Assembly (NCBI GenBank): GCA_947629375.1
Contig: CANRDN010000006.1
Span: forward strand, 11,605 to 75,604
Direction of reading: 5' to 3'
Origin: an uncultured Bacilli bacterium
GTDB lineage: Bacteria; Bacillota_I; Bacilli_A; RF39; UBA660
Length of the DNA stretch: 64,000 nt
This document shows positions 52,416 to 55,483 of the stretch, piece by piece (the first letter of the stretch is position 1; every line of letters starts with the position of its first letter). The notes under the pieces were generated by a model. That model saw nothing but the letters and a program-made list of their open reading frames with translations, was not told where the DNA came from and did no database searches. A program made the translations under genes and the position numbers.

Positions 52416-52859
52416 CTATAGGTTACTTAATTTTTCTTTTATTAGAGAGCTAACTCCTTTCATATCAGCTTTTCCTTTTACTAATGGTGTTAACTCTTTC
52501 ATTATTAATCCCATATCTTTTTCGCTTTTAGGATTAACTTTTTTAAATACTTCATCGATTGTTTTATCTAGTTCTTCCTTAGAAAGTTGTGCAGGTAAAT
52601 ATGTTTGTAATAAATTTATTTCTTCCAACGTTTTATCAATTAAATCTTGTCTTTTTCCTTTTTCAAATTCGACAATTGATTCTTTTCTTGTTTTAATTCC
52701 ACGAGATAGAACAGCAATCATTAATTCATCGTTTACTTCAACACCTTTATTGATGTGCTCTAAATCAGCATCTCCTTTAATTCCTCTTAATGTTTGAAGC
52801 TTTAAGGTGTTTTTCTCTTTCATAGCACTTACTATATCTTGTTTTATTTTATCGTACAT
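52416..52859 (-). CDS. yqeY: GatB/YqeY-domain protein
   Basis: IKQDIVSAMKEKN..LQTLRGIK...YLP.QLS.EEL is typical of YqeY. Sits next to rpsU. An extended -10 tgatataat lies upstream. Confidence 0.85.
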   Translation of the reverse strand: MYDKIKQDIVSAMKEKNTLKLQTLRGIKGDADLEHINKGVEVNDELMIAVLSRGIKTRKESIVEFEKGKRQDLIDKTLEEINLLQTYLPAQLSKEELDKTIDEVFKKVNPKSEKDMGLIMKELTPLVKGKADMKGVSSLIKEKLSNL

Positions 52860-52895
52860 AATATCATCTCCATTTCCATTATATCAAAAGTAAAA

Positions 52896-52917
52896 GAAAA
52901 AGACTAGTAACTAGTCT
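52896..52917 (-). terminator. Hairpin/terminator at the rpsU stop
   Basis: Minus strand agactag-tta-ctagtct followed by ttttctttt. Confidence 0.55.
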
Positions 52918-53111
52918 CTATTTTGTCTATTTCTCTTTTGAGCGTTCTTGATTCCAGCTTTTTTAGCTTCTCTACGCTTATCACCAGGTTTTACTGCAAA
53001 TTCTCTTTTCTTGCATTCAGAAGGGACAGATTCTCTTGCCAATTTTTGTTTTAATCTTCTCAAAGCTAGATCTAAGTTACCATTTTTTACGGCTACTTGT
53101 ACTTGTGCCAT
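52911..53111 (-). CDS. rpsU: 30S ribosomal protein S21
   Basis: MAQVQVAVKNGNLDLALRRLKQKLARESVPSECKKREFAVKPGDKRREAKK fits S21. The RBS ggaaggagggg precedes ATG 53111; the tracked extension to 53174 was rejected. Confidence 0.9.
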   Translation of the reverse strand: MAQVQVAVKNGNLDLALRRLKQKLARESVPSECKKREFAVKPGDKRREAKKAGIKNAQKRNRQNRD

Positions 53112-53342
53112 TGTTCTCCCCTCCTTCCGGTACTCACTAACCAAAATTATAGCATAGTAACTACTACAATTCAAGAAAATTCTACATTTTTTAGCATTTT
53201 TTGAAGTTTTTTGGTCATTTTATTACAGATTTATCATTACTATTTTTTTCAATTATTAAAATATTTCGGTTAACTACTTGTAAAAATATATAAATTATAA
53301 TACAATGTATTTGTCAAGGAAACTTGAATAAAATAAAAAAGA

Positions 53343-53376
53343 GGAACATTTGAATTCGCAAGTGAATGTCACCCTC
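53343..53376. repeat. Inverted-repeat arm 1 (3' arm of the peptide mRNA)
   Basis: ggaacatttga-attcgcaa-gtgaatgtcaccctc pairs with 53535..53561 as 11 bp plus 15 bp with an 8-nt bulge. Confidence 0.85.
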
Positions 53377-53390
53377 TAAAAAATGGGTTG

Positions 53391-53420
53391 GGCACTCTGC
53401 TGATGAGTGTCTATTTTTTT
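53391..53420 (+). terminator. Canonical intrinsic terminator, plus strand
   Basis: ggcactc-tgctgat-gagtgtc, then ta, then T7. Confidence 0.75.
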
Positions 53421-53503
53421 ATAGCTAGTACCAATAAGGTAGAGAGTAATAAAATTATAGAAATAAGTCTTAAAACTTTCAAAATAAAAGTCTTAATCTT
53501 CAT
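53411..53503 (-). CDS. 30-aa hydrophobic peptide (type I toxin-like), below ORF-track cutoff
   Basis: The strong SD aagggaggt lies 7 nt before ATG. The peptide is MKIKTFILKVLRLISIILLLSTLLVLAIKK, one TM helix with a KK C-terminus. Confidence 0.5.
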   Translation of the reverse strand: MKIKTFILKVLRLISIILLLSTLLVLAIKK

Positions 53504-53534
53504 TAATATCTACCTCCCTTCTTTTTCAAGATTG

Positions 53535-53561
53535 GAGGGTGACACTCACATCAAATGTTCC
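53535..53561. repeat. Inverted-repeat arm 2 (5' end of the peptide mRNA)
   Basis: gagggtgacactcac-a-tcaaatgttcc is the reverse complement of arm 1, apart from the bulge and one G-U pair. Confidence 0.85.
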
Positions 53562-53568
53562 AATAGAT

Positions 53569-53600
53569 ATTATATACCGTAGATAAGCTCATAGTAACAA
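53569..53600 (-). promoter_or_regulatory. Promoter of the peptide mRNA
   Basis: Minus strand ttgtta-18-tatata, overlapping tataat at 53569..53574. The predicted start falls at about 53561, the first base of the inverted-repeat arm. Confidence 0.45.
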
Positions 53601-53693
53601 AGCCAGTTAAAAACAAAGAAACTATGTTACAAAACAAACATATTGACAAAATAAAGGATGGAATATATTCTTTAGTTGGAAGGAAATCAAAAA

Positions 53694-53774
53694 ATGTTAA
53701 AAAAAATCAAGAAACTATTACAAAAGATAAAAGACAGAATCCAAATATGGTGGGGTGGAGATATAGATCCTTAA
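53694..53774 (+). CDS. Possible 26-aa cationic amphipathic micro-ORF
   Basis: ttgaca (53643..53648)-17-tattct, ggaagg 10 nt before ATG; peptide MLKKIKKLLQKIKDRIQIWWGGDIDP. The stop lies inside a terminator hairpin. Confidence 0.25.
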   Translation: MLKKIKKLLQKIKDRIQIWWGGDIDP

Positions 53775-53790
53775 AAAGGATCTTTTTATT
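53765..53790 (+). terminator. Intrinsic terminator, plus strand
   Basis: agatcctt-aaa-aaggatct followed by ttttatttt. Confidence 0.7.
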
Positions 53791-53796
53791 TTCGCC

Positions 53797-53822
53797 AAAA
53801 AAAGAAACTCTTTAACGAGTTC
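53797..53822 (-). terminator. Intrinsic terminator after rnj
   Basis: Minus strand gaactc-gttaaa-gagtt(t)c followed by T7. Confidence 0.6.
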
Positions 53823-53830
53823 ACTTCTTC

Positions 53831-55483
53831 TTATACTTCCTGTATAACTGTGATAATCATAGGTTTACATTCAGTTTCTTTATAAAAGTATTTTCCTAAT
53901 CTATCTCTTACATCATTCTTTATTTTTGTATAATCAACTTTTTTGCTGTCTTCCTCGATATTACTTTTAATAACTTCAAGACATAACTCTTCTGTTTCTT
54001 TTATTAAATCGGCACTTTCTTTAACATAGACAAATCCTCTTGTTAAAATTTCTGGTCCAGCAAGAATCTCTTTAGTATTTTTATTTAAAGTACAACTTAT
54101 TATTACTATTCCATTTTCACCAAGCATCTCACGATCTTTTAAAACAAGTTCACCGATATCACCTTGACTTTTACCATCAATTAAAATTTCATCAACTGGG
54201 ATATGCTCTAAATCTTCTGTTAATTTACCATCGACAAAAGTAGCTACATCTCCATTTTGCTTCAAAATAATATTTTCTTTAGGTATTCCAAGGCGCTCTG
54301 CAATTTCCGCATTTTTAACTTGGTGACGATACTCACCTTTAACTGGGAAATAATATTTAGGATTCATTAAATTTATCATAAGCATCAAATCTTCTCTTGA
54401 TGAATGATGTAATAAATGCTTTTTAGCATCCAAACTTATGGCATTTACATCTTTTTTAGCTATTTCATCCATTATAAGAGCTGTACGCTTTTCGATACCT
54501 TCATATGGTGGCTCAGTTATAAAGATTGTATCTGTATCTTTTAATTTAACATATTTATCAAAACCTCTTAAGATTCTTTCAAGATTCATATAAGGTTTTT
54601 CTTTTTCATCAGAAATTAATATTACTACATTCTTATCATTTATATTGGTAAGGTCCCCTATTCTTGTTTTATCGAAAGTAATGTAACCCTCATCGATTGA
54701 TTTGTTGATAATATTTTGTAGGTTTTTACCCATTATAACGACATTTCTTTTAGTCTTAGAAACTTCATTTAATATTTCTTGAACTCTATAGATGTGGGCG
54801 GTCATAATTGTACAGATAATTCTATTTTCATTTTTAGCAAGTACATCACGAATAAATCCAGTTACACGGTTATTAGGACTCGTGTGTCCTTCCTTTTCAG
54901 CATAAATTGACTCGGAAAGCAAACATAAGACACCTTGTTTTCCAACATACGCAAGTTTTCCAATATCTGTCTTGTAGTTTCCCATCATTGTCGAATCAAA
55001 AACGAAGTCACCTGTATAGACGATGGCACCATCCTCTGTATATAAAACATAGCAAACAGAATCAGGAATCGAATGCGTTACACTGATAGGGAAAACAACT
55101 AAATCACCGAAAGTAAGCTTAGAATGAGGTCTAATTTCTTTTAAGTTAGTTGCAGTTACACCACTTTCTTGTAAGTCTTCTTTTAAAATATTCATCGTAA
55201 ACTTAGTAGCATACACAGGTAAGTCTGGCATATCAAATAAGATATCTGCCATTGCACCCATATTACTATCGTGACCGTGTGTTAAAAATATACCTTTTAT
55301 TTTGTTTTTATTATTTTTTATATAACTATAATCCGGTAAGATATAATCTACTCCTAACATTTTGTCAGTCGCATATTTAAGTCCTGCATCGAAAATAAAA
55401 ATATTTTCATCTACATTAACAACATACATATTTTTACCGGTTTCGTTTAGTCCACCTAAACTAAAAATTTTTATTTTACTCAA
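53831..55483 (-). CDS. rnj: Ribonuclease J family protein with substituted metal ligands (J2-like)
   Basis: Aligns along its full length with B. subtilis RNase J1 (ALGGLGEIGKN / SLGGLNETGKN, THSIPDS, TGDF.FD, GVLCLLS, GEYR). However HGHEDH is HGHDSN here, and PIHGEYR is PVKGEYR. Confidence 0.85.
   Translation of the reverse strand: MSKIKIFSLGGLNETGKNMYVVNVDENIFIFDAGLKYATDKMLGVDYILPDYSYIKNNKNKIKGIFLTHGHDSNMGAMADILFDMPDLPVYATKFTMNILKEDLQESGVTATNLKEIRPHSKLTFGDLVVFPISVTHSIPDSVCYVLYTEDGAIVYTGDFVFDSTMMGNYKTDIGKLAYVGKQGVLCLLSESIYAEKEGHTSPNNRVTGFIRDVLAKNENRIICTIMTAHIYRVQEILNEVSKTKRNVVIMGKNLQNIINKSIDEGYITFDKTRIGDLTNINDKNVVILISDEKEKPYMNLERILRGFDKYVKLKDTDTIFITEPPYEGIEKRTALIMDEIAKKDVNAISLDAKKHLLHHSSREDLMLMINLMNPKYYFPVKGEYRHQVKNAEIAERLGIPKENIILKQNGDVATFVDGKLTEDLEHIPVDEILIDGKSQGDIGELVLKDREMLGENGIVIISCTLNKNTKEILAGPEILTRGFVYVKESADLIKETEELCLEVIKSNIEEDSKKVDYTKIKNDVRDRLGKYFYKETECKPMIITVIQEV

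What the first reader, a model, noticed from the sequence alone, without database searches (positions are those of the whole stretch)
53335..53600. Type I toxin-antitoxin-like module between rpsU and rnj: 30-aa hydrophobic peptide, 5'/3' fold-back mRNA and a convergent antisense RNA
The rpsU-rnj spacer is about 650 bp and contains no conserved tracked ORF.

Seen directly on the minus strand:
- A promoter-like ttgtta-18-tatata(at) whose predicted start coincides with ggaacatttgatgtgagtgtcaccctc.
- Then a strong SD (aagggaggt) 7 nt before an ATG that opens MKIKTFILKVLRLISIILLLSTLLVLAIKK, one TM helix with a lysine-capped end.
- About 40 nt after the stop codon, gagggtgacattcac[ttgcgaat]tcaaatgttcc, which pairs with the 5' end over 15 + 11 bp. 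It is followed by ttttttatttt.

Seen directly on the plus strand:
- A textbook intrinsic terminator (ggcactc-7 nt-gagtgtc-ta-T7) sits antisense to the peptide stop codon and 3' UTR.
- No plus-strand gene precedes it. This is what would be expected if a roughly 75-nt antisense RNA is made from about 53343.

Several type I TA systems share these traits: a tiny hydrophobic peptide, long-range 5'/3' pairing (the hok fold-back principle) and a 3'-overlapping convergent antisense RNA (B. subtilis txpA/RatA, bsrG/SR4). The 5' arm also contains CCUCC, which could alternatively pair with the SD GGAGG. I do not recognise the peptide as a member of a named toxin family.
Basis: partly seen in the sequence, partly recalled or inferred. 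Interest (0 to 1): 0.8.

Follow-up and report, generated by a model that had tools for sequence, protein, structure and literature searches.

The report
New type I toxin-antitoxin-like cassette family
The rnj-rpsU spacer holds one copy of a roughly 325-bp cassette found in well over 100 gut-metagenome contigs; it encodes a conserved 30-residue membrane peptide on an mRNA whose two ends pair, opposed by a conserved antisense RNA, which is the anatomy of a type I toxin-antitoxin system from a family that appears undescribed.

Summary

**Family.** The cassette is window 53276-53601. It is one member of a family with at least 140 copies on metagenome contigs of about 26% G+C, many from gut samples. 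Copies sit in unrelated genomic contexts, often in tandem arrays of 2-4 or next to tRNA genes.

**Conserved features across copies:**
- A 30-codon ORF, intact in 66 of 69 clean copies. dN/dS is about 0.23 and variation is concentrated at third codon positions.
- Pairing between the 5' and 3' ends of the mRNA, kept by compensatory changes.
- A CCUCC motif next to the 5' arm that is predicted to occlude the SD.
- A hairpin immediately after the stop codon.
- An antisense promoter beyond the mRNA's 3' end (TTGAAA-17-TGnTATTAT), better conserved than the sense promoter.

The final two Lys codons are AAA in 87 of 88 cases. That fits selection for the U-tract of the antisense terminator.

**Location.** The closest relatives have an empty rnj-rpsU spacer of about 110 bp, so the cassette sits in accessory DNA at a variable hotspot.

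**Known families.** Pfam, NCBIfam, PADLOC, PHROGs, Rfam and a full-text search for the sequences gave no match.

**Limits.** Toxicity and both transcripts are untested.

**Correction.** The antisense RNA is predicted at about 108 nt (53313-53420), not about 75 nt.

**Verdict.** This is a new member of a known kind (type I TA).

The parts
53276..53601 (.). Conserved cassette unit, from the sense -35 to the antisense -35
   Evidence: Column identity among 81 unique copies rises above the AT-rich background (about 0.45-0.5) only between -40 and +285 relative to the 5' arm start. The window's flanks on either side are not shared with other copies.
53569..53600 (-). Sense promoter: TTGTTA (53600-53595) and TATAAT (53574-53569)
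   Evidence: Read from the sequence. In the family the -10 is TATAAT in 50 of 69 copies, ends 6-7 nt before GGAACA, and the -35 is mostly TTGTTT with a 17-nt spacer. In the window the spacer is 18-20 nt, so this copy's promoter is weaker than consensus and was not listed by the scan.
53535..53561 (-). 5' arm of the mRNA (GGAACAUUUGA-U-GUGAGUGUCACCCUC); predicted 5' end at 53561
   Evidence: Present in MFE and centroid. The first 21 nt are identical in over 120 metagenome stretches. Terminal helix probability is 0.98 averaged over 59 family mRNAs.
53534..53539 (-). Anti-SD CCCUCC at the inner end of the 5' arm
   Evidence: CCUCC:GGAGG forms a standard pair in 90% of cells in alignment A3. It is the predicted SD partner at 0.67 of pairing probability in free mRNAs and 0.87 when the 3' UTR is masked.
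53512..53520 (-). Shine-Dalgarno AAGGGAGGU, 8 nt before the ATG
   Evidence: Read from the sequence. GGAGG is nearly invariant in the family.
53411..53503 (-). 30-codon ORF plus stop: MKIKTFILKVLRLISIILLLSTLLVLAIKK
   Evidence: Listed. Homologues at 87-90% identity were found among 1.84 billion proteins. 66 of 69 clean copies have 30 codons. dN/dS is about 0.23 and third positions are the most variable.
53389..53420 (+). Hairpin abutting the stop codon plus T7: intrinsic terminator of the antisense RNA. The T-run is templated by the Ile-Lys-Lys-stop codons.
   Evidence: Found by the terminator scan. The hairpin is conserved and covaries (UA 15 / AU 10 at one pair). Lys codons 29-30 are AAA in 87 of 88 cases against 118 of 168 elsewhere in the ORF, p = 1e-9. 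The stem shows no strand preference in stability.
53343..53376 (-). 3' arm (GAGGGUGACAUUCAC-UUGCGAAU-UCAAAUGUUCC)
   Evidence: In the family its columns pair with the 5' arm in 97-99% of cells, with covariation at 10/244, 22/222 and 23/221. An arm pairs better with its own partner than with a permuted one: -33.4 against -31.25 +/- 0.28 kcal/mol, 0 of 500 permutations as low.
53330..53342 (-). UC + UUUUUUAUUUU: 3' end of the mRNA. The CCUC just before the U-run can pair locally with GAGG of the 3' arm.
   Evidence: Read from the sequence. In the family the last 50 nt fold locally at a mean of -7.5 kcal/mol, with the stem ending at the U-run.
53278..53306 (+). Antisense promoter TTGTAA-17-TACAAT
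   Evidence: Found by the scan. In the family the -35 is TTGAAA or TTGACA, the spacer is 17 nt in 57 of 69, TG sits at -15/-14 in 64 of 69, the -10 is TATTAT in 42 of 69, and the -10 end lies a fixed 36-39 nt before the complement of the arm. The site lies beyond the mRNA's U-run.
53313..53420 (+). Predicted antisense RNA of about 108 nt: 5' hairpin UCAAG-GAAA-CUUGA (53314-53327), A-rich linker, complement of the 3' arm, terminator
   Evidence: Fold is -26.4 kcal/mol, z = -2.75. The 5' hairpin has compensatory variants in the family (TGAAG/CTTCA 20, GCAAG/CTTGC, TCAAG/CTTGA, TGAGA/TCTCA). The start site is inferred from the promoter position and is not measured.
53200..53828 (.). Segment absent from the closest relatives: accessory DNA in the rnj-rpsU hotspot
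   Evidence: Relatives with 93% and 91% identical RNase J have a spacer of about 110 bp (L013, L015). Others carry a 330-aa ORF (L014) or unrelated ORFs of 94 or 96 aa (L001-L010).

Best explanation
This is one copy of a self-contained cassette of about 325 bp that has the anatomy of a type I toxin-antitoxin module. It belongs to a family that appears undescribed, found on low-G+C metagenome contigs, many of them from gut samples.

**Shown by sequence and comparison**
- A weak sigma-70-type promoter starts an mRNA of about 230 nt at GGAACA (53561).
- The mRNA encodes a 30-residue peptide that is under purifying selection. The peptide has a Lys-rich N-terminus, a hydrophobic helix and a C-terminal KK.
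- The first 21-27 nt of the mRNA pair with the last nucleotides before the U-run. This pairing is kept by compensatory changes.
- A conserved CCUCC at the inner end of the 5' arm is complementary to the SD.
- A convergent promoter of extended -10 type lies beyond the mRNA's 3' end and is better conserved than the sense promoter.
- That promoter would drive an RNA of about 108 nt, beginning with a GNRA-capped hairpin and ending at a hairpin plus U-tract that overlaps the last codons.

**Inferred mechanism**
1. During transcription CCUCC captures the SD, so the nascent mRNA is not translated.
2. A local 3' hairpin (GAGG...CCUC) followed by the U-run terminates transcription.
3. The 5' and 3' arms then zip together (about -33 kcal/mol). 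This buries the 5' end and should stabilise a translationally silent mRNA pool.
4. The antisense RNA is fully complementary to the whole 3' UTR, including the 3' arm. It pairs with the mRNA to form a duplex of about 100 bp.
5. That duplex strips the 5' end of its protection, keeps the SD closed, and probably offers an RNase III substrate. The mRNA is degraded without being translated.
6. If the antisense RNA falls short, some mRNA is translated and the membrane peptide arrests growth.

Toxicity, both transcripts and the nuclease steps are inferred, not shown.
For: **Anatomy in the window:**

**Family size and spread**
- Three homologous peptides at 87-90% identity were recovered from 1.84 billion proteins.

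**Coding**
- 66 of 69 clean copies have exactly 30 codons.
- Entropy by codon position is 0.56 / 0.45 / 0.86.
- dN/dS is about 0.23.

**Fold-back helix**
- RNAalifold recovers it, with AU19 / GC12 / GU4 at one pair and GC13 / AU8 / GU3 / UA2 at another.
- 96.2% of cells pair, against 35-52% when partners are slid.
- No shuffle of 500 reaches the observed covariation score or the observed count of double changes.
- An arm pairs better with its own partner than with a permuted one, 0 of 500.
- Divergent paralogs that were not selected through the 21-mer keep the helix through many compensatory changes.

**SD occlusion:** P(SD unpaired) is 0.14 in the free mRNA and 0.05 with the 3' UTR masked; the partner is CCUCC.

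**Antisense RNA**
- The promoter is conserved at a fixed distance, outside the mRNA, with TG in 64 of 69 copies.
- The 5' hairpin has compensatory variants.
- The last two Lys codons are AAA in 87 of 88 cases against 70% elsewhere, p = 1e-9.

**Accessory nature**
- The site is empty in the closest relatives.
- Contexts are unrelated, tandem arrays occur, and decayed copies exist with ORF deletions, a frameshift or a premature stop.

**Match to known anatomy**
- The arrangement matches Gram-positive type I TA families, in which the antisense RNA lies on the 3' side and partly overlaps the mRNA.
- SD/anti-SD pairs and 5'-3' long-distance interactions are recognised key determinants (PMC8594479).
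- The peptide fits the type I toxin profile of under 60 aa, one transmembrane segment and charged C-terminal residues (PMC6563280).
Against: - No experiment or transcriptome was available. Toxicity, both start sites, both 3' ends and any nuclease cleavage are inferred.
- The 5' arm (21 nt) was the search key, so its invariance in the main set is by construction. Only its partner columns, positions 10 and 22 onward, and the 23 copies found by nhmmer are free tests.
- The sequences are related to one another, so shuffle-based significance overstates independence.
- The hairpin after the stop codon is equally stable on both strands.
- The window's own promoters are weaker than consensus: the sense spacer is 18-20 nt and the antisense promoter has no TG.
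- In the window copy the SD is predicted to pair with ORF and 3' UTR segments, not with CCUCC, unless the 3' UTR is masked.
- No copy was found on viral contigs, phage records or plasmid records, unlike many type I TA systems.
Confidence: 0.7

Rival explanations
1. It is a non-toxic small membrane protein gene under cis-antisense control. The cassette encodes a 30-residue membrane peptide with a physiological role, for example modulating a transporter or sensor, and the antisense RNA and fold-back only tune its expression. There is no addiction or growth-arrest function.
For: - All the comparative evidence shows only that the peptide and both RNAs are under selection, not that the peptide is toxic.
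- No copy is on phage or plasmid records.
- No match to any toxin model.
Against: - The cassette is accessory: it is absent from relatives whose RNase J is 91-93% identical.
- It is multi-copy, occurs in tandem arrays, and sits in unrelated contexts.
- It decays by ORF deletion, frameshift or premature stop.
- The SD is predicted closed in nearly all copies, and the antisense promoter is stronger than the sense promoter. Together these are the hallmarks of type I TA systems and are unusual for a housekeeping small protein (PMC8594479, PMC6563280).
Confidence: 0.2
2. It is a miniature inverted-repeat mobile element, or a purely structural repeat. The two arms are terminal inverted repeats of a non-autonomous transposable element, and the ORF is incidental.
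For: - Many dispersed copies exist, with inverted arms of 26 bp.
- The window copy is an insertion relative to an empty site.
- Copies frequently lie next to tRNA genes.
Against: - The ORF has a fixed length of 30 codons, with dN/dS of about 0.23 and variation concentrated at third positions.
- Conservation extends 40 nt and 65 nt beyond the arms to two promoters, so the arms are not termini.
- The arms covary like RNA helices, including G-U pairs.
- The window's extra DNA is about 630 bp, and its flanks are unrelated to other copies.
- Target-site duplications were not examined: the unit boundaries are not sharp enough to test for them.
Confidence: 0.04
3. It is a secreted or antimicrobial peptide (bacteriocin-like) gene with antisense regulation.
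For: The product is a short cationic-hydrophobic peptide. Gut small ORFs with antimicrobial activity are known (PMC12821620; title and abstract only were seen).
Against: - The peptide has no leader or cleavage motif.
- Where called genes were listed (L017-L019 and the window neighbourhood), none was recognisably an immunity, transporter or modification gene, and the contexts differ between copies. Neighbouring genes of the other copies were not annotated.
- The tightly closed SD and the overlapping antisense RNA fit prevention of expression better than production for export.
Confidence: 0.04

Closest known systems
Bacillus subtilis type I TA systems with a 3'-overlapping antitoxin (TxpA/RatA, BsrG/SR4, BsrE/SR5, YonT/SR6)
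   Same: - Convergent genes.
- The antisense RNA lies on the 3' side of the toxin mRNA and overlaps its 3' UTR and the end of the ORF (organisation as summarised in PMC8594479).
- The toxin is small and hydrophobic with a charged C-terminus.
- A long duplex suggests degradation.
- From my own knowledge: SR4 binding at the 3' end also tightens SD occlusion, much as the model here predicts.
   Different: - No sequence similarity: Pfam, NCBIfam and Rfam give nothing.
- This peptide has 30 residues and a Lys-rich N-terminus.
- The mRNA closes end to end through a covarying helix of 21-27 bp.
- It is not on prophage-like DNA: 0 hits in 2.9 million viral contigs and in the phage records.
Enterococcus faecalis par (Fst / RNA I - RNA II)
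   Same: - A Gram-positive system with convergent transcripts.
- The SD is sequestered by a 5' structure.
- From my own knowledge (Shokeen et al. 2009): an intramolecular 'upstream helix' between the 5' end and a region near the 3' end stabilises the toxin mRNA.
   Different: - In par the two RNAs share one bidirectional terminator and interact through 5' direct repeats outside the overlap (PMC8594479).
- Here the antisense terminator lies inside the mRNA, just after the stop codon, and the interaction region is the overlap itself.
- The peptide does not match Fst models.
hok/Sok (fold-back inhibition) and Helicobacter pylori AapA/IsoA
   Same: A long-distance 5'-3' interaction closes the full-length toxin mRNA and is coupled to SD occlusion (PMC8594479). 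AapA1 also has 30 residues.
   Different: [quoted passage not shown]
- In them the 3' element itself occludes the SD, and 3' trimming activates the mRNA.
- Here the anti-SD lies in the 5' arm and the antisense RNA targets the 3' arm.
- There is no mok-like leader ORF and no homology.
Clostridioides difficile type I TA systems (CD2517.1-RCd8, CD2907.1-RCd9, CD0956.2-RCd10 and prophage homologues)
   Same: - Firmicute systems with convergent, overlapping toxin and antitoxin genes.
- A long complementary region suggests degradation.
- Toxins of 30-56 aa with a hydrophobic segment and a Lys-rich C-terminus.
- Originally unannotated (PMC6563280).
   Different: - Those systems are associated with CRISPR arrays and prophages.
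- Their toxins have the hydrophobic part N-terminal and a long charged tail.
- No end-to-end fold-back is described in the text I read.
- I did not compare the sequences directly.

Membership tests
Type I toxin-antitoxin systems (the class) | Small hydrophobic protein (under 60 aa, one transmembrane segment, charged end) that is toxic when expressed | tested here: inconclusive
   Size, hydrophobic core and the KK terminus are conserved and under purifying selection. Toxicity cannot be tested with these tools.
Type I toxin-antitoxin systems (the class) | A non-coding antisense RNA is made from the locus | tested here: inconclusive
   There is a conserved extended -10 promoter outside the mRNA, a conserved 5' hairpin, and a terminator whose U-tract is under synonymous-site constraint. 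No transcript data were available.
Type I toxin-antitoxin systems (the class) | The antisense RNA base-pairs with the toxin mRNA | tested here: met
   The predicted RNA (53313-53420, +) is encoded opposite the mRNA's 3' UTR and last codons (53420-53330, -). It is therefore perfectly complementary over about 90 nt.
Type I toxin-antitoxin systems (the class) | Intrinsic translational silencing of the toxin mRNA (SD/anti-SD pair, 5'-3' long-distance interaction) | tested here: met
   Mean P(SD unpaired) is 0.14. The CCUCC:GGAGG helix pairs in 90% of cells. Terminal helix probability is 0.98 with covariation. These are predictions, not structure probing.
Named toxin families with profile models (Fst/Ldr, Hok/Gef, TisB, Ibs and others in Pfam-A and NCBIfam) | Peptide matches the family's profile | tested here: not met
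   Six family peptides gave no hit better than E = 0.13, and none to a toxin model. PADLOC and PHROGs gave nothing meaningful.
Rfam antitoxin and toxin-mRNA families (for example RatA, Sok, Sib, par RNA II, SprA1as) | RNA matches the covariance model | tested here: not met
   No relevant match even at E <= 10 over 52800-54000. Nothing reaches gathering score anywhere in the window.
hok/Sok | Antisense RNA at the 5' side, an overlapping leader ORF (mok), and activation by 3' trimming | tested here: not met
   The antisense promoter and terminator are on the 3' side. No overlapping upstream ORF is conserved. Processing is not testable.
MITE / non-autonomous transposon | Conservation ends at the terminal inverted repeats, target-site duplications are present, and there is no selected ORF | tested here: not met
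   Conservation extends to promoters beyond both arms. The ORF is under purifying selection. Target-site duplications were not examined.

The most novel reading that the evidence does not exclude
The cassette may be a three-state RNA device built on a single pairing code. One CCUC(C) motif in the 5' arm and a second CCUC just before the U-run compete for two G-rich partners, the SD (GGAGG) and the GAGG of the 3' arm.

On this reading the same few nucleotides would carry out, in order:
1. co-transcriptional silencing of translation;
2. intrinsic termination by the local GAGG...CCUC hairpin;
3. end-to-end closure of the mRNA, which hides its 5' end.

The antisense RNA carries a near-copy of the 5' arm. 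It would act by displacing that arm from the 3' arm.

If this is right, the cassette would be a compact, portable design not described for any type I TA family. It would also be the main such system of an uncultured low-G+C gut lineage.
Probability: 0.3. Interest if true: 0.65.

Novelty: new member of a known kind. Interest (0 to 1): 0.55.

Why it matters
**Discovery gap.** Type I TA systems are hard to find because the toxins are tiny and unannotated and the antitoxins are RNAs. Known Firmicute families come mostly from cultured Bacillus, Enterococcus, Staphylococcus and C. difficile. This family comes from uncultured organisms of about 26% G+C, many of them in gut samples. It is abundant there: at least 120 stretches in one capped scan. 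Gene callers mostly miss it; the window peptide is not on record as a called gene.

**Experimental value.** The many natural variants already show which nucleotides covary. That gives a ready-made mutational map for testing how end-to-end mRNA closure, SD occlusion and a 3'-overlapping antisense RNA cooperate in a Gram-positive setting.

**Annotation.** The cassette marks the rnj-rpsU spacer and the regions downstream of tRNA genes as variable hotspots. It also explains an otherwise 'empty' 700-bp spacer.

Tried and rejected
- **Tool length limits.** The search for homologous proteins and the search for related loci refuse a 30-aa query.
- **Wasted scan.** I spent the single genome-contig scan on a pattern that fixed the window's own variable dinucleotide (GTCACCCTC). 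It returned only a chance hit in a Methanomicrobia MAG. The source species and its genome-wide copy number therefore remain unknown.
- **Viral, phage and plasmid searches.** Viral contigs (two patterns), phage records and plasmid records all gave nothing.
- **Source organism.** The taxonomy look-up rejected the name 'CAG:710'. The only name obtained is 'Clostridium sp. CAG:710', for an RNase J that is 83% identical.
- **Strand bias of the post-stop hairpin.** I expected it to be more stable on the antisense strand. It is not: 24 copies favour sense and 21 favour antisense, so I dropped that argument.
- **tRNA read-through.** I considered that the antisense RNA might be read-through from the adjacent tRNA genes. 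A terminator hairpin plus T-run for the tRNA is embedded in the antisense promoter, so read-through is not the main source.
- **Fold-back helix as the only terminator.** I considered this too. A local 3' hairpin (mean -7.5 kcal/mol) also abuts the U-run, so the fold-back helix need not be the terminator.
- **Excluded metagenome hits.** Four hits (L030, L059, L075, L101) are unrelated GC-richer sequences that share only the 21-mer. I excluded them.
Full report
**1. Observation**

Reading 52900-54000 on both strands and listing ORFs confirms each element.

- **Promoter.** The minus strand carries TTGTTA (53600-53595) and TATATAAT (53576-53569).
- **5' arm.** GGAACAUUUGAUGUGAGUGUCACCCUC follows at 53561-53535.
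- **SD and ORF.** AAGGGAGGU (53520-53512) lies 8 nt before the ATG at 53503. The ORF has 30 codons and ends at 53411: MKIKTFILKVLRLISIILLLSTLLVLAIKK.
- **Hairpin.** One hairpin abuts the stop codon.
- **3' arm.** GAGGGUGACAUUCAC-UUGCGAAU-UCAAAUGUUCC occupies 53376-53343, followed by UC and UUUUUUAUUUU.

The RNA from 53561 to 53325 folds at -69.7 kcal/mol. The 11 + 15 bp terminal helix is in both MFE and centroid, with z = -6.66 and 0 of 200 shuffles folding as well.

On the plus strand the scan finds a terminator at 53389-53413 followed by T7, and a promoter-like TTGTAA-17-TACAAT at 53278-53306.

Rfam has nothing relevant. There is no second copy in the window.

**2. The spacer is accessory DNA**

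- Contigs that encode the identical S21 protein but are only about 85% identical in DNA carry a different rnj-rpsU spacer, with unrelated ORFs of 94 or 96 aa (L001-L010).
- Relatives whose RNase J is 93% and 91% identical have a spacer of only about 110 bp: the rnj terminator directly followed by the rpsU promoter (L013, L015).
- Another relative carries a 330-aa ORF at this site (L014).

Window positions ~53200-53828 are therefore an insert in a variable hotspot. A contig identical to the window ends at 53312, right at the edge of the module.

The lineage includes 'Clostridium sp. CAG:710', whose RNase J is 83% identical.

**3. A family**

The peptide is not on record as a called gene. An exhaustive phmmer search of 1.84 billion proteins nevertheless returned three hits at 87-90% identity over all 30 residues.

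Their contigs (L017-L019) hold the whole module in unrelated contexts, twice in tandem in L017.

The 21-nt start of the 5' arm was invariant among those copies. Phage and plasmid records have none.

A DNA profile of the mRNA finds 145 hits in the held loci, two of which are the window and its identical copy L011. Eighteen loci have 2-4 copies, and 23 copies lack the exact 21-mer.

Median G+C of the loci is 26%. Of 125 copies, 35 lie within 300 bp of a tRNA gene. In 32 of those 35 the tRNA gene is on the module's 3' side and on the opposite strand.

**4. Boundaries**

Among 81 unique copies, identity exceeds the AT-rich background only from -40 to +285 relative to the 5' arm start. That corresponds to window 53601-53276, running from the sense -35 to the antisense -35.

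The window's own flanks are not shared with any other copy.

**5. The ORF is a gene**

- Of 69 clean unique copies, 66 have exactly 30 codons.
- Entropy per codon position is 0.56 / 0.45 / 0.86.
- Mean dN is 0.20 and mean dS is 0.87, a ratio of about 0.23.
- Invariant or nearly invariant residues include M1, K2, K9, L18, L20 and K29.
- Subtypes exist, for example MKKRVYVIKLLRYICIILSLLTLLVLVIKK and MKKRTFIIKVLRLIAIILLLLTLLVIAIKI. Divergent paralogs encode peptides of 27-31 residues.
- Some copies are decayed by ORF deletion (L124, L046), a frameshift (L068) or a premature stop (L123).

**6. The fold-back is selected**

- RNAalifold on 35 diverse mRNAs recovers the terminal helix. Covarying pairs are 10/244 (AU19, GC12, GU4), 22/222 (GC13, AU8, GU3, UA2) and 23/221.
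- For the helix set, 96.2% of cells pair, against 35-52% when partners are slid by 1-3 columns.
- The covariation score is 0.139 against 0.096 for shuffles, and cells changed on both sides number 35 against 16. Both are reached by 0 of 500 shuffles.
- A table of 5' variants against 3' variants shows matched classes: CAC/GUG, CAU/AUG, CUA/UAG, CAA/UUG.
- Own-partner duplexes average -33.4 kcal/mol against -31.25 +/- 0.28 for permuted partners, 0 of 500.
- Paralogs that were not selected through the 21-mer have extensively different arms that still pair end to end.

Caveats:
- Positions 1-21, except position 10, were fixed by the search pattern in the main set.
- The sequences are related to one another.

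**7. SD occlusion**

CCUCC at the inner end of the 5' arm pairs with GGAGG in 90% of cells.

In ensemble folds of 59 mRNAs the terminal helix has probability 0.98, and the SD is unpaired with probability 0.14. The SD's partner is CCUCC for 0.67 of pairing probability.

Masking the 3' UTR, as an antisense duplex would do, lowers P(SD unpaired) to 0.05 and raises the CCUCC share to 0.87 (Wilcoxon p = 1e-8).

The window copy is atypical. Its 3' arm pairs right through CCCUC, so its SD is predicted to pair with ORF and 3' UTR segments until the 3' UTR is masked.

**8. The antisense RNA**

- **Promoter.** Beyond the mRNA's U-run lies a promoter that is better conserved than the sense promoter.
  - The -35 is TTGAAA or TTGACA.
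  - The spacer is 17 nt in 57 of 69 copies.
  - TG sits at -15/-14 in 64 of 69.
  - The -10 is TATTAT in 42 of 69.
  - The -10 ends 36-39 nt before the complement of the arm.
- **5' hairpin.** About 7 nt downstream of the -10 comes a 5-bp hairpin with a GAAA loop on this strand. It has compensatory variants.
- **Terminator.** The RNA would end at the hairpin that abuts the stop codon. Its U-tract is templated by the Ile-Lys-Lys-stop codons.
- **Synonymous constraint.** Those two Lys codons are AAA in 87 of 88 cases, against 118 of 168 elsewhere in the ORF (p = 1e-9). Protein coding cannot explain a constraint at synonymous sites.
- **Window copy.** The RNA is predicted at 53313-53420 (108 nt) and folds at -26.4 kcal/mol, z = -2.75.
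- **Strand preference.** The stem itself shows none.

**9. Mechanism**

See Best explanation for the full scheme, with shown and inferred steps marked. In outline:
- CCUCC silences translation.
- A local 3' hairpin (mean -7.5 kcal/mol, abutting the U-run) terminates transcription.
- The two ends then zip together.
- The antisense RNA pairs with the whole 3' UTR.

**10. Comparison with known systems**

The organisation matches Gram-positive type I TA families, in which the antisense RNA lies on the 3' side and partly overlaps the mRNA. It also uses the recognised determinants: SD/anti-SD pairing, terminal stem-loops and a 5'-3' long-distance interaction (PMC8594479). The peptide fits the type I toxin profile (PMC6563280).

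Membership of any named family fails. Pfam, NCBIfam, PADLOC, PHROGs and Rfam give nothing. A full-text search for the peptide and arm sequences finds no paper.

**11. Verdict**

The cassette is a new family within a known class. Toxicity and transcription remain to be shown.

Noticed in passing
window 53643-53792 (+): A second small unit lies in the same insert, convergent with rnj. It has a promoter-like TTGACA-17-TATTCT (53643-53671), a possible SD, and an ATG at 53694 that opens MLKKIKKLLQKIKDRIQIWWGGDIDP (26 aa, cationic and amphipathic, stop at 53774). A terminator at 53765-53783 plus a T-run overlaps the stop codon. No homologue was found next to other cassette copies.
   Followed up: partly
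window 53112-53830 compared with L001-L016: The rnj-rpsU spacer is a hypervariable hotspot in this lineage. It is empty (about 110 bp) in L013 and L015, holds a 330-aa ORF in L014, and holds two unrelated ORFs of 94 and 96 aa in L001-L010. In L007, WXG100-like genes replace rnj upstream of rpsU.
   Followed up: partly
L018, L020, L031, L040, L043, L055, L067, L073 and others (3' side of the cassette): 28% of copies sit 15-50 bp downstream of a tRNA gene (Leu, Arg, Ala, Thr), in the orientation of the antisense RNA. The tRNA's terminator hairpin and T-run are embedded in the antisense promoter: the -35 lies in the loop or 3' stem, and the T-run forms the spacer.
   Followed up: partly
L099 1889-2792; L130; L074; L112; L076; L017: There are tandem arrays of 2-4 cassette copies with a period of about 340-375 bp. 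They often mix divergent peptide subtypes, and some copies are partial.
   Followed up: partly
L035, L058 (and L120): In these copies the hairpin-to-3'-arm region or the antisense promoter is deleted or replaced by an adjacent tRNA gene. Two of them (L035, L058) carry polar substitutions in the hydrophobic core (I17N, R12H), which might mean the toxin was inactivated after the antitoxin was lost. L099 also has N17 with a complete module, so the link is unproven.
   Followed up: no
L011 (identical to window 58483-53312): An independent assembly of the same sequence breaks at 53312, exactly at the outer edge of the cassette. That would fit a repeat or strain variation starting there in the source organism.
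   Followed up: no
window 1-64000: No Rfam family reaches its gathering score anywhere in the 64-kb window: no tRNA, rRNA, riboswitch or leader.
   Followed up: no
L018 and L138 (ORF end): One extra A in the terminal A-run (A8 instead of A7) shifts the stop codon and extends the peptide by 4-6 residues (…KKIDTL…). The homopolymer that forms the antisense U-tract is therefore also a slippage-prone site in the ORF.
   Followed up: no
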